Shown here piece by piece: positions 3,001 through 62,400 of a stretch of DNA of 64,000 bases. The stretch comes from Magallana gigas (Eukaryota). Made by a program: the position numbers. The stretch spans positions 13,950,001-14,014,000 of the forward strand of contig NC_088861.1 in assembly GCF_963853765.1 (NCBI RefSeq). The letters are read 5' to 3'. Position 1 is the stretch's first letter, and each line of letters begins with the position of its first letter.

Positions 3001-6000
3001 ACTTGGCAACAACATACTTTTATCTAACGAAAATACGTAAAGTTGCAGTTTAGATGTTGACCATTTCTGCAATTGTAAGAAAAAAAAATATGTTAATAGT
3101 CTATTTTTTTTTTTTGAAATAGTGCATGTCCTTAAGTGCAGTCATCATTTGAAATATTTAGAATCAACACTGCAGTATAATATTCTAACCTCGTGTTACT
3201 TTTGCTTATCTCATTTGCAAGCATGTCCCTTCATTTAAATATAACCTGATAATTTTGTATTCAAAATTTTAATAGATTTTCTTTACCCTTAATCAGAACA
3301 AATGAAACCAAATTAAAACATATTGAAAATTTGCCGTAAAAAGATCTTTACAATTACTTGGTAGGCAAGGAAAACCAAAGGCACACTACAACCTGTAAAT
3401 ACATGTACATGCTTTGTAACGAACATCAAAATCAATCATTCTCTGGTAAACCACTCTATATTGAGTGCAAAAGCGCTCGTAAATGAACTTTATTTAACAA
3501 GTCTCTGAGTAAATGAAATTAACTATCAGAAACTAACAAAGTTAAATACGCAAGGATAAAAAACTGTGAAAATACATACAAAATTATTTTTTCGACTGTC
3601 GCAGTTTACCTCCCTTTATTTTTTTCATAATGTCACATGGAGCTATCTATTCAAAAATAAGGTTAAAGATAGTAGGGGTTATATCAAAAATAAGTAATTA
3701 AAATGTTTATCACCCCAGTGATATAGAAGTTATACCATAAACATCTTTTTTTGATAATTTGATGTTTGGAGGCAAAATTTTCGGAATTTTTTCGACGGTT
3801 TCTTGACTGGAAAACATAGAGCGCATGTCTGCGCAAGTACTATTTTAAACTATGATGTATATTATCACGTTGCAGGAAGTAGCCATTTGATGTAAACAGC
3901 TACTGGACATTGATGACGTATCAAGACTTATGTGATATATATCCTCTGTGTACTGTTTTAAAAAGATTTGATTGTTTTTTTATCAATAACGCAAATGACT
4001 TACTGATGCAGCGCAAGCGCAGTATTTATACGAAATACAGATAACATGAAAAATAAAATGTCATTTATTTAATATTTAGTAGTATGGAAATTCTTTGAAT
4101 ACTATGCGGTCATAATTATGATCGGGGCGAAATCAAATCTATTGACAAAAATTGATATTCAAAGAATTATTCCCTTTCCCTTAAATCATTTGCAACAATT
4201 TGATTTAATATATTTCCTCACTTTGATTACAGTGTTTTCTTTATTATATGTTTGTGTATATATTAATTAAAAAATTAAGAAATTAAGAGTTTCGTGAATG
4301 TTGCCGAATAAACTCCGAGAGGAAATACTCAGCGTTATGACCAAAACTAGGATGTGAATTCAACGTCGTTTTCAAAAATACGTTTTGAAGCTATTTTCTT
4401 AAGTTACATCCCTATAGAAGAAATAGAATGCTTTTTTTTTTGGTGATCCATGCAAGTTATGGTAGCAATCAATGCCATAGAAAAAAAGTAGATTATATAA
4501 CCAGCTAAAGCAGTTATGTATTTTTACTGCAATTTCGCTACCTTTATATTCCGAATGAATCACCTAAAAGCATTTGGTCATTTTAATAGTGTTTTTGATT
4601 TGAATAAATTTCACAGGAAACACTTAAAATTTCCGAGAGTGATTCATTGACTTCTGTACCTTAGTATACTAGAGGAATTGGGGTAAAATTGACTAATTTA
4701 CTTTTTCAACTTTGGACCTAATAATGATCAATTAAAACCTTTATACTGTACAAAGTTAAAGCAGTGAGTGTTACAAACTGTTAGTTTCAAAATAGTTCAA
4801 ATTATATTTCAATTGTATATATTATGCCTATAAGGAAATTAATATGCTTTTGCTTTTTATTTTAAGCGTTGCATGAAGTTTTGTTGTTAATATCTCTTTG
4901 TATTATTTCATCATATTTTAAGCGATGATTTATATCTTTTAACAGATGTATCAAAGCAAACTGTTCTTGTAAAACATCAATGTAATGTATATGTAATGCA
5001 AATTCGTAGTGGAAACGCGAAAATATATACTGTACAAATGTATTTTCATCAAAATTGATTTTTAATTTAAGTATCATATACTTTCTATGATTTTTTCTAG
5101 GAATATAAATATTTGTTGTTTTGGATTTAACTGGAATGACATTATTGTAAATTGAACAGGCATTAATATGATATCATGTTTTAAAAACATATGTTTGCTA
5201 TTTATATGAAAGCTTATCATACCTTATATGATATTTTCTTAGTGGATCAATGTGTTGTACTGGATCTATCTGGAATGATACCATAGGAGACTGTACAGAT
5301 ACATGTTCTACATGAAATGTTTTCTGGAAACAATGGACGTTATGAGATTTAACAATTGTGCTACATCATAATCGTAATTTGTTTTCATGTTACATGTGCA
5401 AAATTTTCAAAAATAGATTCTTTGGAGATAACTGCTCTACAAAGTATCCTGCAATGTATTTTGGTCCAGGCTGTTTATTACAGTGTAATTGTATCACAGA
5501 ACAATGTCACCACGTTATCGGATGTTTGCAATCTTCTTCTAAAGGTGCATGGTGAACTCTCTTAACTGTTCCACTTGCTATATACGAATACATTTTAAGA
5601 ATGTTTATGTCATGCATGAAATTTTACACAACCTATCATAAAAACATAATGAATACAAATGAAAACAATATTGACAAAACGATGCATGTCCCCTGCAACA
5701 CCCTAAATTTTAAAACAATTCTTGTTGTTTAATGGGCTAAATATGTATGGAAAAAATCGGAGCTAGATTCTTAATGGACGAATCCGACTAGCTTAAAACA
5801 TTTTGCATTATTTTTGGGCTCATTCGGGTTCCTTTGGAAAGATCAACGCATCGCCGTAGCACATTTCCGATCATGTTTGTATATACGTAAATACCTGTAA
5901 ATTAAAAGTAAATGAATTTAAACTTTATATGCACACCATTATGAAGTTGCACAGGAAGTTTGAAATCAATTCGTTATAACATAACAAAACATGACTGACA

Positions 6001-59400: not shown

Positions 59401-62400
59401 GTCCAATATTTCAACATATAACGTGAAAAATAATTTCATTAAGATCCGGAGTTCTGGAATGCTGCCTTGGATATATTTTGAACAAGATAGAGAACAGATG
59501 TATTCGTAAGTTTTAACTCAGACTCTGGATATTCAATATGTATTTGCATGCATATTCACTGTCGCTCATATCTATTTGTTTTAATGTACAGCATGTGACA
59601 AAGGATATATTGGACACAACTGTAGTGACCCTTGTCCTCCTCCATATTATGGTCAGGAGTGTGCGTCAACGTGCAACTGTACTGATAACCAGTATTGTCA
59701 TCACGTACATGGATGTATACAACCACAAGGTAAATGTCACGGAATGATGATCCTTCCCCTTTTTCTACATACTGTTATGATTTCACTTATATTCGTGGGC
59801 ATTAATTTTTGTGGATAAATCGAAAATCACAGTTTTAAGGATACTCTGCCAATAATTCCAGCAATACATATTTTATTAGAAATTGCATCACAACGTTTAC
59901 TTACATTTAATTTCGTGAATAAACTCAACAACGAAATCCACGATTCTTTTTATTTTACAATTGTTGATAAAAACCACTATCAAAAGTAGCATATATTTTT
60001 ACTTCCAAGTATATTAGAAACTTCCGTATATCTCGCTCATAAAATTTTGTTTTTTATTTCATTATTGTTCTGAAAATTCAATATCCATATAGTTTTATAT
60101 TTAAGGTAATAAACAAAGTGTTTAAAAATATTTATCCTGCAGGTGATGCCTGTCAAAAAACAAAGCTAAAACCAGAGAAACACCCAAGTGTCACTTCTCT
60201 TATGTGTGCTGCAGTAGTTTGTCTGTTGATCATATCTGTAATCTGTTTCACTTCATATGTGTACATCAGATTCAGAATGAAACAATATGTAGATTTGCGA
60301 CAAGCTTTGTAAGAACTAATAAATTCGTTTCATATACAGCAATGTGTATGAGTGTAGTCTTCATTAATACATGTATCTTTTAATATACCGGTACCTGTAG
60401 GTGCACTTGTAAGCAATAAACGTGGCAACGTTAAAAAGACATCTCTAAGGTTTTAATTATCGTAAACAAGCGCTTTCCGCTAATGATACATCAGAACGAA
60501 CACTTACATTTTGTTCAAAATAAGATTAAGATGATGTTATAGAAACCGGAATTTTCTAATATATAATTTTAGATTCGTGTGTTAAATTTCACTTTAGATT
60601 ATTTGTAACTCAATGAGGGTACTATATGTAAAAGATATTAATATATAGGCAATTATACTAGTCAATTGTAAACAATGCACTTGAATGTCTACATAGCTGT
60701 TTAACCAAAACAACTGGACAGTTTGCATGTCATAGCAGATATTACAGCCCATTGCTAGAGCTGTTTATTACTTAAATAGTTTTGATTAGAAAAAAGAGAT
60801 GTGAATTATATTGATACATATTATGTTAAGTTATTTAATGTTTGATCAATTCATAAAGTAAATATACGGACCAAATAATCTTATTTTGACCAAATTGGGA
60901 TGCATATGATGTCATAAATAACCTACGTCATACATGTATATACCATGTATAAACCTCTCATTTCAGAAATACTAAACACTATAAAGTCACAAACAACTTA
61001 TAACATCATAATTTGTGTTGTTAAATTGTTTCTATGAAAAACATTTTTTTAATGGCACCAAATTGTAATAAATATCCAAACAAGGTATGTAACAATACGA
61101 CATCATTATGTAAACTAAGAACAAAATTCTGTTACATTTAATATCAACAACATTTCCATGATATAGGATAAACAAAACAGAAGTGACAAAACACGTATTC
61201 AGAATGCTAGAATTTTCAAGTAAGGAAAGGTAAAAAGAGTTTATTTGCCATAAATTAGTCTTCATTTATTAAGGTATCCCACTCCTCAATGTTCGTGTAT
61301 CAAGAATTTCTTGAGAAGTATATCATTGAAATCTGACGACAAAACATACTTAAAAAATACAAAGATAAAGAGATGTCAGTTTTCAGCCCTCTGATTTATG
61401 GCCAATTTAATTTTACCTCTTTGAACCCAAAATGCTATTTCAGCCTGATTGTGATTTCTTGTCAGTATTTTTGATTAAGCAAACTTTTTTCTTGAGGTAT
61501 TGTTTTTAATAATGCACAATGGTCACATTGAATAGAAGATTACGACAAGAATTTTCACGAATCTGCATAAATTTTTGTGTGACCTTTTTGCACTTAAAAT
61601 AGACACTTTCTATATTATTTACAATTTAACTTGAATAAAATCATTTTGAATATCAAGAACTTTATAAGATTAATCAGGTTTGCCTAGATAAGTATTCAGC
61701 ATCATTTTGACATAATAAAACATGGAGGTCAGTGATGTCAAATTTTAGATATATTGCTTCAAAGGTAGAATTTTTGCAAAATTTCGCTAAAAAAATTCAG
61801 ACAATACTTATATATATATGCATGATTTTATGATACACATCTATCATTCTCTCAAAATTTAGTTTTGTACAAGTCACATAGGACCTAAAAAACATGTCAC
61901 AAACCTATCAGATGTTAAAAATGTTAATATTGAATAAAGTATAATAAAAGAAAAGTATATTGAAAATTCATAAAATTGCTTGTATCCAACATCTTAGACT
62001 ACCTTCCGCACACAAAAATAGTTCCCCCAAAACTTGATTGTTGATTGAAATCAAATATATTTTCTTTATGAATAATGTTAAATTATGAAATGATGATCTT
62101 TATGTGAGGTTTAAATTAATAAAATCATATTCCATTAAAATATTATGGACATTTGCGCTATGAAATAAATATGTGAGCAGTGAGATACCTTAATAACAAA
62201 ATCTAGAACATTCATACAACATCCCATCTCTTTTTAAATGGTAAGAAACTATAATTATGTAGTACAATTATTCATTTAATTAACATCTACTGTATAAAAA
62301 ATTTCTAATCATTGTCCATGTTTTCCTGGTTTCAATACTATATGAAATCATGAAAATACAATATAATAATGTGTACAATATAACTATTTCAATCACTTTT

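What the first reader, a model, noticed from the sequence alone, without database searches (positions are those of the whole stretch)
4600..60900. Four-gene D-A-B-C cassette triplicated, each copy losing different members
Seen: order is D1psi/D2psi-A1-B1-C fragment | D remnant-A2psi-B2-C1 | D remnant-(A absent)-B3-C2. Intergenic flanks recur in the same order, for example the B upstream block (12590-13590, 22900-23860, 53670-54270), the post-B block (16070-16160, 58560-58650), the C upstream block (35080-35570, 58660-59150) and the pre-A block (9750-10080, 20790-21100). Only one intact A remains, while B has three open copies. Inference: birth-and-death evolution by unequal crossing-over, possibly with dosage constraint on the ITIM-bearing member.
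[Added by the scan's program, not by the reader: the finding's places include an assembly gap (unread letters, written N; its length is only estimated) at 33897 to 34024. Whether the letters on both sides are continuous or in frame is not known: test that first.]
Basis: partly seen in the sequence, partly recalled or inferred. Interest (0 to 1): 0.65.

Follow-up and report, generated by a model that had tools for sequence, protein, structure and literature searches.

The report
Tandem array of small EGF receptor genes
This stretch is an ordinary but well-preserved example of a gene cluster that grew by repeated local copying: twelve head-to-tail copies or pieces of one family of small EGF-domain membrane proteins, of which only five still look functional.

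Summary
The repeat pattern is real. Twelve gene-derived segments lie on the + strand in the order D1, D2, A1, B1, C fragment, D remnant, A2, B2, C1, D remnant, B3, C2.

A, B, C and D are themselves paralogues. Each has a signal-peptide exon, a CCxGY exon, one EGF-like exon, a stalk and a transmembrane exon. The EGF exon matches solved SCARF1 and Tie2 EGF modules.

Five genes are intact: A1, B2, B3, C1, C2. B1 is not fully open; it stops before its transmembrane segment. A2, D1 and D2 carry several lesions each.

The copies are not of one age. K2P runs from 0.064 to 0.36 in at least four tiers. The C fragment plus first D remnant is one young 4-kb copy of the C1-to-second-D-remnant junction, so the two D remnants are one loss, copied.

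The 128-N gap is intergenic. Each flanking contig shows the cassette order by itself.

Birth-and-death evolution is supported. A single triplication is not, and nothing supports a dosage constraint on the ITIM-like gene. This is an ordinary kind of locus; interest is low to moderate.

The parts
4630..6605 (+). D1, a full-length but dead D-type copy. CC exon from 5243, EGF exon about 5397-5544, stalk exon from 6143, TM exon about 6318-6506.
   Evidence: The AG acceptor and the 1st and 3rd Cys of the EGF exon are lost. In-frame stop at 6224 in the stalk exon. Views.
6607..8492 (+). D2, a tandem partial copy of the D1 5' part, with an 865-bp insertion at 6831-7695. It has no stalk or TM exons.
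   Evidence: 86-90% identity to 4630-5655. K2P 0.08. In-frame TAA in the EGF exon, acceptor at 8240 kept.
8489..9770 (+). Post-D and pre-A flank blocks of unit 1, which recur in unit 3.
   Evidence: 8489-8582 ~ 40820-40914; 8599-8772 ~ 44367-44531; 8916-9030 ~ 44534-44649; 9625-9770 ~ 52554-52695.
10079..11629 (+). A1, intact 5-exon gene: 10079-10158, 10278-10342, 10465-10590, 10722-10793, 11379-11629. It has a 21-residue tail ending in an ITIM-like I-x-Y-x-x-V.
   Evidence: GT-AG borders and phases 2,1,1,1. Exon translations. TM segment and motif.
13523..15712 (+). B1: exons 13523-13590, 14824-14888, 14974-15117, 15561-15712. It is truncated by a TAA before the TM segment. The relic of the TM region follows, with a 1-nt deletion near 15772.
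   Evidence: Maximum hydropathy of the last exon is 0.34, against 2.2-2.9 in the others.
16939..20785 (+). Young 3.9-kb block: the C fragment (starts inside the C TM exon) plus C downstream DNA plus D remnant 1 (stalk exon from 19888, TM relic about 20089-20154).
   Evidence: 87-92% identity by BLAST. K2P 0.064 to 36660-40775. Sharp left edge. Right edge. Stops in the TM relic.
21100..22412 (+). A2 pseudogene: exons 21100-21182, 21281-21338, 21461-21586, 21718-21788, and from 22167.
   Evidence: Exon 2 is 7 nt short and exon 4 is 1 nt short. In-frame stop at 22187. A 5-nt deletion near 22342.
23791..26169 (+). B2, intact 4-exon gene: 23791-23858, 24889-24953, 25031-25171, 25994-26169. A relic stalk exon with a stop (about 25800-25870) is bypassed.
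33897..34024 (.). Assembly gap (128 N) in the B2-C1 spacer.
   Evidence: It is intergenic and was not filled.
35505..36751 (+). C1, intact 4-exon gene: 35505-35569, 35864-35925, 36016-36153, 36582-36751.
36660..40775 (+). Partner of the young block: the C1 3' end plus downstream DNA plus D remnant 2 (stalk exon from 39890).
40820..44649 (+). Unit 3 post-D flank blocks (40820-40914, 44367-44649), separated by about 3.4 kb of unit-specific DNA.
45796..51709 (+). Insertion between post-D and pre-A in unit 3: a 168-bp satellite, 27-bp repeats, and a tyrosine-recombinase retroelement-like unit. It is not part of the cassette.
   Evidence: GC is 38-43% against about 30% elsewhere.
52554..52695 (+). 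Pre-A flank kept in unit 3. The A gene that should follow is missing.
   Evidence: 81% identity to 9625-9770. No A-type EGF exon in unit 3.
54198..57597 (+). B3, intact: exons 54198-54265, 56347-56411, 56496-56636, an optional duplicated stalk exon 57035-57103, and 57353-57597. The tail is only 3 residues.
58520..58655 (+). Post-B block of unit 3.
   Evidence: 83% identity to 16029-16158.
59083..60312 (+). C2, intact 4-exon gene: 59083-59147, 59444-59505, 59592-59729, 60143-60312. The tail holds a YxxL.

Best explanation
The span is a head-to-tail tandem array of one family of small type I membrane proteins of about 140-200 residues. Each protein has a signal peptide, a short Cys-rich piece with a CCxGY motif, one SREC/MEGF-type EGF-like module, a Ser/Thr-rich stalk with one Cys, one transmembrane helix, and a tail of 3-21 residues.

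An old round of tandem duplication produced four subtypes, ordered D-A-B-C. That four-gene unit was then re-copied, so the order and its intergenic flanks recur three times. The three units are mosaics made by several later events of different age. About K 0.25-0.35: B1/B2/B3, C1/C2, D1 versus the remnants, and the unit 1 versus unit 3 flanks. K 0.137: A1/A2. K 0.08: the local D1 to D2 partial tandem copy. K 0.064: a 4-kb block running from inside the last C exon through an already truncated D, now present at both the unit 1/2 and unit 2/3 junctions.

Deletions removed A from unit 3, the 5' part of C in unit 1, and the post-D flank in unit 2. Point lesions killed A2, D1 and D2 and truncated B1. 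Five genes remain intact: A1, B2, B3, C1 and C2.

Shown here: the anatomy, the order, the divergences and the lesions. Inferred: that the mechanism is unequal or ectopic recombination between the repeats. Also inferred: that the proteins are cell-surface recognition or adhesion receptors of the SREC/MEGF10 kind whose tails are mostly too short to signal alone.
For: Collinear blocks with E-values down to 0. All 9 EGF exons are on the + strand. Exon structure, GT-AG borders and intron phases (2,1,1) are the same in A1, B1-3 and C1-2. EGF-exon amino-acid identity is 76-91% within a type and 27-55% between types. A profile of 6 EGF exons hits the solved EGF modules 6u11_A (1.5e-10), SCARF1 8hn0 (2.2e-5) and Tie2 (2.7e-3). 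The nearest ESM Atlas clusters are molluscan, one of them a 161-aa cluster auto-named MEGF10 (scores 0.91 and 0.89; a lead only). K2P tiers are and their uniformity along each block. Sharp block edges are shown. Hydropathy gives a TM segment in 5 genes and none in B1. dN/dS is 0.27-0.61 in the CC+EGF exons of B and C pairs, consistent with purifying selection on the ectodomain (small counts).
Against: Exon-level Pfam scans gave only sub-threshold hits (EGF_STAB1-2 and DSL, E 0.003-0.8). The CCxGY exon matched nothing in Pfam or PDB. The fold of the EGF exon was low-confidence (pLDDT 57.7). No transcript evidence supports the exon models. No eukaryotic genome or protein collection could be searched, so neither the species nor orthologous clusters were seen. 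No single simple history fits all the distances. A recent unequal crossover explains D, A and C of the middle unit but not B2. An old triplication needs later patch copying. dN/dS of the stalk/TM exon is 1.26-1.38, which could mean relaxed constraint even in the 'intact' genes. The order of B2 and C1 rests on a scaffold join across the gap.
Confidence: 0.78

Rival explanations
1. The array had only two units until recently: D1-A1-B1-C and D-(A)-B3-C2. One unequal crossover between misaligned units then created a chimeric middle unit. Its left part came from the second unit and its right part from the first.
For: This predicts that the middle D is closest to the third unit's D (observed K 0.08). 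It predicts that the middle A and C are closest to the first unit's A and C (observed 0.137 and 0.09). The first-versus-third comparisons should stay old, and they do (B1-B3 0.24, C1-C2 0.27, D1-remnant 0.23).
Against: B2 should then be within about 0.1 of B1 or B3, but it is 0.36 and 0.33 away (BLAST 71-78%). A (0.137) and the C/D block (0.064) differ in age by more than their sampling error. The high-identity block ends sharply at 16939 and at 20785 rather than running through the unit.
Confidence: 0.2
2. The apparent repetition is an assembly artefact: uncollapsed haplotypes or a wrong join at the 33897-34024 gap.
For: A gap sits inside the middle unit. The B2-to-C1 spacing is 9.3 kb, against about 1.5 kb for B3-to-C2. 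No reads could be examined.
Against: Copies differ by K 0.064-0.36, with many indels. Even the youngest pair has 843 of 4403 alignment columns gapped. They carry different lesions and different flanks. The contig left of the gap shows D-A-B-C(fragment)-D-A-B by itself. The contig right of it shows C-D-(A)-B-C by itself. The gap flanks do not overlap. After the young block the two contigs are not collinear: A2-B2 on one side, and no A plus a B3 at K 0.33 on the other.
Confidence: 0.04
3. The young 4-kb block (C 3' end plus D remnant) was moved by a transposable element that captures host fragments, not by recombination between units.
For: The left edge is sharp and lies inside an exon. The window is rich in repeats and holds at least one retroelement.
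Against: The block sits exactly where a C-D junction is expected in the cassette order, in the same orientation. No terminal repeats, element ORFs or extra copies of the block were seen in the window. Element termini were not searched for specifically.
Confidence: 0.05

Closest known systems
SCARF1/SREC-I, MEGF10/MEGF11/PEAR1 and Draper-type EGF-repeat receptors
   Same: The EGF exon has the Cys/Gly spacing of their repeat unit and aligns to solved SCARF1 residues 58-100 (E 2.2e-5) and to Tie2 EGF repeats. They are type I membrane topology. A CCxGY/W motif upstream of the first EGF recalls the end of an EMI domain; that resemblance is recalled, not tested positively.
   Different: There is one EGF module per protein instead of 5-17. 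No EMI domain was detected. Tails are 3-21 residues instead of long signalling tails. The whole protein is about 140-200 residues.
Tandemly expanded bivalve immune-type gene families (C1q-domain, TLR, C-type lectin, IAP; 'MEGF10 family' transcripts in oysters)
   Same: Local tandem duplication with many copies. PMC6835236 reports extensive tandem duplication of C1qDC genes in bivalves (search listing and start of abstract). PMC9892467 reports several 'MEGF10 family' transcripts differing between oyster families (passages).
   Different: Those papers do not describe this short one-EGF subfamily or this locus, as far as the listings and passages I saw show. The species of the window could not be established with the tools open here.
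Vertebrate paired-receptor clusters (KIR, LILR, Siglec and the like; recalled knowledge)
   Same: A tandem cluster with similar ectodomains and different tails. One member has an ITIM-like tail motif, others are nearly tailless, and pseudogenes and fragments are interspersed.
   Different: The ectodomain is EGF-like, not Ig or lectin. The tailless members have no charged residue in the predicted TM segment. The ITIM-like motif is single and sits at the very C-terminus. No functional data exist.

Membership tests
SREC/MEGF-type EGF-repeat receptors | EGF-like module with the SREC/MEGF Cys spacing, recognisable by sequence against solved members | tested here: met
   The profile of 6 EGF exons hit 6u11_A at 1.5e-10, SCARF1 8hn0_A at 2.2e-5 and Tie2 2gy5_A at 2.7e-3. 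There are 14 invariant columns, including 8 Cys.
SREC/MEGF-type EGF-repeat receptors | Pfam EGF-type domain at the curated gathering score | tested here: not met
   Exon by exon, the best hits were DSL at 18.3 bits (cut-off 24.2) and EGF_STAB1-2 at 14.5 bits (cut-off 27). The joined protein was not searched.
SREC/MEGF-type EGF-repeat receptors | Several to many tandem EGF repeats in one ectodomain | tested here: not met
   One EGF exon per gene and 9 in the whole window.
MEGF10/Draper subfamily | N-terminal EMI domain | tested here: inconclusive
   Only a CCxGY motif in a 20-21-residue exon. It gave no Pfam hit and no PDB hit. The piece is too short for either test.
MEGF10/Draper subfamily | Long cytoplasmic tail with NPxY and ITAM-type motifs | tested here: not met
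   Tails after the TM segment are 3 residues (B2, B3), about 14-15 (C1, C2) and 21 (A1).
ITIM-bearing inhibitory receptors | Cytoplasmic [S/I/V/L]xYxx[I/V/L] | tested here: met
   A1 has one at the last six residues. The same pattern matched 3 further exon pieces in signal or TM segments, so a match alone is weak evidence.
ITIM-bearing inhibitory receptors | Tyrosine phosphorylation and SH2-phosphatase recruitment | not testable with these tools
   This needs biochemistry.
Paired activating/inhibitory receptor clusters | Short-tailed members carry a charged TM residue for an ITAM adaptor | tested here: not met
   The most hydrophobic 19-residue segments of B2, B3, C1 and C2 contain no K, R, D or E.
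Tandem gene arrays under birth-and-death evolution | Same-strand paralogues with intact genes, pseudogenes and fragments interspersed, and copies of different ages | tested here: met
   5 segments are intact and 7 are dead or partial. K2P is 0.064-0.36.
Tandem gene arrays under birth-and-death evolution | Copy-number or presence/absence variation between individuals or species | not testable with these tools

The most novel reading that the evidence does not exclude
The cluster may be an invertebrate counterpart of vertebrate paired-receptor loci, built on a single SREC/MEGF-type EGF module instead of Ig or lectin domains. One member would be inhibitory (A1, with its C-terminal ITIM-like tyrosine motif). 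It would sit beside tailless (B2, B3) and YxxL-bearing (C2) members that share related ectodomains and act as decoys, co-receptors or activators. B1 would be on its way to becoming a secreted decoy. The fast change of the stalk/TM exon (dN/dS 1.26-1.38) would reflect shifting partnerships.
Probability: 0.1. Interest if true: 0.6.

Novelty: new member of a known kind. Interest (0 to 1): 0.3.

Why it matters
The value is mainly practical. The locus is a clean worked example of how a receptor-like family grows and decays in a repeat-rich, mollusc-like genome. It shows that a regular-looking 'cassette triplication' can hide at least four events of different age. Automated annotation would probably call several of the dead copies and fragments genes, and would name them 'MEGF10-like' although they have one EGF module and almost no tail. 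Expression or copy-number studies that report 'MEGF10 family' differences between oyster families (PMC9892467, passages seen) may be reading loci like this one. If the tail differences between A, B and C prove functional, the family would be a small, tractable system for receptor pairing outside vertebrates.

Tried and rejected
I replaced it with exon-by-exon scans, which gave only sub-threshold hits.
- A PDB profile search with the CCxGY exon found nothing meaningful: one xylanase at E 1.2.
- AlphaFold2 on the EGF exon with the 6-row alignment gave pLDDT 57.7. This is too poor for a fold search, so none was run.
- Weak tblastn hits of the EGF exon at 17914, 19009, 38940 and 39514 (E 0.24-1.7) lie in Cys-rich translations of simple repeats upstream of the D remnants. 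I rejected them as relic EGF exons.
- A search for papers naming PDB entry 6U11 found 2 unrelated papers. What that entry's protein is stays unknown to me beyond the depositors' name.
- Literature searches found no description of this short family. 'oyster / MEGF10 / tandem duplication' gave 1 paper, on heat-tolerance GWAS. 'Crassostrea / MEGF10 / expanded / tandem' gave 0. 'bivalve / MEGF10 / gene family expansion' with at least 2 terms gave 225 papers, 20 listed, none holding MEGF10. 'oyster / MEGF10 / hemocytes' gave 8.
- Rfam and tRNA scans of the window found 0 and 0.
- I considered a single recent 20-kb tandem duplication (the offset of the young block is 19.7-20.0 kb). I rejected it because A2/B2 have no 90% partner 20 kb downstream.
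- The prokaryote-only genome-contig scan was not spent, because it cannot hold this locus.

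
Full report
**What the window is**

The window is 64,000 bases at about 31% G+C, with two N runs at 33897-34024 and 63132-63332. Nothing suggests a human origin.

**The gap first**

The 128-N gap lies in the spacer between B2 (stop at 26169) and C1 (start at 35505), so it is in no exon or reading frame. 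The ORFs that cross it are runs of X. The 2 kb on either side share nothing longer than 24 nt, so there is no sign of an overlapping, unclosed join. One weak collinear repeat straddles it: 1752-1914 / 1922-1940 / 2110-2155 against 33217-33373 / 33396-33414 / 34942-34987. That is a hint of continuity, not proof.

Continuity is therefore unknown, and I did not fill or look up the N. The cassette argument does not depend on it. The contig left of the gap reads D-D-A-B-C(fragment)-D-A-B by itself, and the contig right of it reads C-D-(A missing)-B-C. Only the statement 'three units in a row on one molecule', and the membership of C1 in the middle unit, rest on the join.

**The observation**

| Block | Unit 1 | Unit 2 | Unit 3 | Identity |
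|---|---|---|---|---|
| D 5' part | 4630-5655 and 6607-8492 | absent | absent | 86-90% (D1 vs D2) |
| D 3' part | 5575-6605 | 19133-20330 | 39096-40373 | 71-76% (D1 vs the remnants) |
| Pre-A plus A | 9728-11729 | 20751-22511 | absent | 83-84% |
| B with upstream | 12562-16075 | 22873-26176 | 53073-57850 | 71-79% |
| Post-B | 16029-16158 | not found | 58520-58655 | 83% |
| C | absent (3' end only, next row) | 35081-36805 | 58664-60368 | 76% |
| C 3' end through D remnant | 16939-20785 | 36660-40775 | – | 87-92% |

The last row spans the unit 1/2 junction and the unit 2/3 junction.

The post-D flank of unit 1 (8489-9030) and the 146 bases just before the pre-A block (9625-9770) recur in unit 3 at 40820-40914, 44367-44649 and 52554-52695. 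B3's upstream block follows from 53073, so the A gene was deleted between retained flanks. A satellite-plus-retroelement insertion (45.8-51.7 kb) sits between post-D and pre-A.

**What the genes are**

A tblastn of all + strand ORFs against the window showed that A, B, C and D share the same exons. A second tblastn with the six intact EGF exons finds exactly nine copies in 64 kb, all on the + strand: at 5418, 8242, 10467, 14976, 21463, 25033, 36018, 56498 and 59594.

Splice sites read by coordinate give consistent GT-AG models with the same intron phases, 2, 1, 1 (and 1):
- A1: 10079-10158, 10278-10342, 10465-10590, 10722-10793, 11379-11629
- B2: 23791-23858, 24889-24953, 25031-25171, 25994-26169
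- B3: 54198-54265, 56347-56411, 56496-56636, (57035-57103), 57353-57597
- C1: 35505-35569, 35864-35925, 36016-36153, 36582-36751
- C2: 59083-59147, 59444-59505, 59592-59729, 60143-60312

The exons encode, in order:
- a hydrophobic N-terminus (a signal peptide by inference);
- a 20-21-residue piece with an invariant CCxGY motif;
- one EGF-like module with 8 invariant Cys;
- a Ser/Thr-rich stalk with N-glycosylation sequons and one Cys;
- a transmembrane segment (maximum hydropathy 2.2-2.9);
- a tail of 3 residues (B), about 14-15 (C) or 21 (A).

I searched these spliced models exon by exon. The joined proteins were neither built, searched nor folded.

**Family**

Exon by exon, Pfam gives only sub-threshold hits (DSL, EGF_STAB1-2). 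A profile of the six EGF exons matches solved structures: an 'EGF-like domain-containing protein' (6u11_A, 1.5e-10), scavenger receptor class F member 1 (8hn0_A, 2.2e-5, residues 58-100) and the Tie2 EGF repeats (2.7e-3).

The ESM Atlas look-up places the B3 EGF exon nearest to molluscan clusters. One is a 161-residue cluster auto-named MEGF10, and next come EGF_laminin / EGF_PEAR1L clusters (scores 0.91-0.81; leads only).

The CCxGY exon matched nothing, so its likeness to the end of an EMI domain is my recollection, not a result. A fold of the EGF exon was too uncertain to use (pLDDT 57.7).

These proteins therefore work like, and are related to, SREC/MEGF-type EGF receptors. They are not ordinary members, having one EGF module, no demonstrable EMI domain and almost no tail.

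**Which copies are alive**

Intact: A1, B2, B3, C1 and C2. The others are damaged as follows.
- B1 has good exons 1-3, but its last exon reads into a TAA at 15710-15712 before the transmembrane segment. The sequence after it has a 1-nt deletion relative to B3, and no hydrophobic segment is left in frame. B1 is a pseudogene or at best a secreted truncation, not an 'open copy'.
- A2 has exon 2 seven bases short, exon 4 one base short, an in-frame stop at 22187 and a 5-nt deletion near 22342.
- D1 has lost the AG acceptor and the first and third Cys of its EGF exon, and has a stop at 6224 in the stalk exon.
- D2 keeps the acceptor (8240) but has an in-frame TAA in the EGF exon and lacks the 3' exons altogether. 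These lesions are independent, so D was probably still alive when D1 and D2 separated (K 0.08).
- The two D remnants hold only the stalk and TM exons, the latter with stops.
- The C fragment begins abruptly inside the TM exon of C.

**Ages**

K2P distances on MAFFT alignments:

| Pair | K2P |
|---|---|
| B1-B2 | 0.36 |
| B2-B3 | 0.33 |
| B1-B3 | 0.24 |
| C1-C2 | 0.27 |
| D1 vs either remnant | 0.23 |
| A1-A2 | 0.137 |
| D1-D2 | 0.08 |
| remnant 1 vs remnant 2 | 0.08 |
| C fragment vs C1 | 0.09 |
| whole 16939-20785 vs 36660-40775 block | 0.064 |

Identity is fairly even along each block. The exception is the 3' end of B1-B3, which rises to about 0.9. The EGF exon also runs against the intron signal: B1-B2 are 91% identical in amino acids, although their introns are the most divergent. 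Both are signs of local exchange between copies.

Between types, the EGF exon is only 27-55% identical. The four types are therefore much older than the re-copying of the unit.

**History**

No single event fits.
- A recent 20-kb tandem duplication is excluded, because A2/B2 have no close partner 20 kb downstream.
- A recent unequal crossover in a two-unit array predicts exactly the observed closest relatives for D (middle with third unit), and for A and C (middle with first unit). It fails for B2.
- An old three-unit array fits B, C1-C2, D1-remnant and the unit 1 / unit 3 flanks. It then needs later copying of a 4-kb junction tract and of A.

I favour the last reading: an old array plus patchy ectopic exchange and deletions. 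I hold that preference with modest confidence.

Two corrections follow. The two D remnants are one truncation that was copied, not two independent losses. The C fragment is the edge of that same young block rather than the slow decay of an old C.

**The ITIM idea**

A1 ends in a match to the ITIM pattern, and it is the only cytoplasmic match. The same pattern also hit three signal or TM pieces among the 12 exon translations scanned. C2 has a YxxL, C1 has no tail tyrosine, and B has a three-residue tail. The tailless genes have no charged TM residue. A paired-receptor reading is possible but untested. A dosage constraint on A is not needed to explain one surviving A, since D has no surviving copy at all.

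**Selection**

Summed exon by exon, dN/dS is 0.27-0.61 for the CC+EGF exons and 1.26-1.38 for the stalk/TM exon in B and C pairs. Counts are small: 5-11 synonymous differences in the CC+EGF exons and 4-9 in the stalk/TM exon. This is only an indication that the ectodomain is constrained and the stalk/TM is not.

**Literature**

Tandem duplication as the driver of bivalve receptor and lectin expansions is established. I saw PMC6835236 only as a search listing and the start of its abstract. 'MEGF10 family' transcripts differ between oyster families in PMC9892467 (passages). Its Supplementary Materials S4 and S6, which list them, were closed and may bear on whether genes like these are expressed. 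PMC9334734 treats MEGF10 as a C1q receptor in Aplysia (passages). My four searches turned up no description of this short one-EGF family or of this locus. That is not proof that none exists.

**Verdict**

The finding is a real feature, carefully observed, with one factual slip (B1). The locus belongs to a known kind: a tandem, birth-and-death array of a lineage-expanded receptor-like family. Interest is low to moderate.

Noticed in passing
window 47526-51709 (+): A retroelement-like unit with G+C of 38-43%. It holds an ORF with tyrosine-recombinase domains (50118-51032: Phage_integrase 1.6e-5, SAM-like 1.6e-4), followed by a GDSL/SGNH-hydrolase-like ORF (51191-51706, 1.5e-5). It is preceded by 15 copies of a 27-bp repeat inside a long ORF (47595-48001). 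The upstream ORFs gave no Pfam hit. From memory this pairing recalls DIRS/Ngaro-type elements. It is inserted between the post-D and pre-A flanks of unit 3.
   Followed up: partly
window 46081-47208 (by BLAST 45796-47217); related pieces at 28602-28923: A 168-bp satellite with 6.7 copies at 87% match. Diverged fragments of the same unit lie in inverted orientation in the B2-C1 spacer.
   Followed up: partly
window 56846-57475: A 318-bp tandem duplication (91% match) inside B3 doubles the stalk exon. The first copy (57035-57103) keeps AG and GT borders and is a multiple of three, so it could add 23 residues to the stalk if spliced in.
   Followed up: partly
window 25447-25870: B2's last intron holds a 122-bp x2 repeat and a relic of the stalk exon with an in-frame stop. 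B2 stays open only because a new acceptor at 25994 bypasses the relic.
   Followed up: partly
window 14974-15117 vs 25031-25171; 15570-16075 vs 57440-57850: Local mismatches between exon and intron history. The B1 and B2 EGF exons are 91% identical in amino acids although their introns are the most divergent pair. The 3' end of B1 is about 90% identical to B3, against about 75% elsewhere. This suggests short gene-conversion tracts.
   Followed up: partly
window 270-1036: A tandem repeat with a period of 154-166 bp (315 bp as a dimer), outside the finding.
   Followed up: no
window 38157-38627: A 156-bp tandem repeat downstream of C1 that carries a 147-codon open frame on the minus strand. It is probably a repeat artefact rather than a gene.
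   Followed up: no
window 31515-31742 (+): A short ORF with a sub-threshold MADF/Myb-SANT-like match (E 0.0059, 17.4 bits against a cut-off of 22) in the unit 2 spacer. It is possibly a transposon relic.
   Followed up: no
window 12562-12859 and 22814-23039 vs 53073-53409: The far-upstream part of the B block matches unit 3 in inverted orientation (70-72%). Either a small inversion or a palindromic mobile element lies upstream of B.
   Followed up: no
window 63132-63332: A second assembly gap (201 N) outside the finding.
   Followed up: no
window 44040-44400 and 40920-40951: Long TA-rich microsatellites with inverted symmetry in the unit 3 spacer.
   Followed up: no
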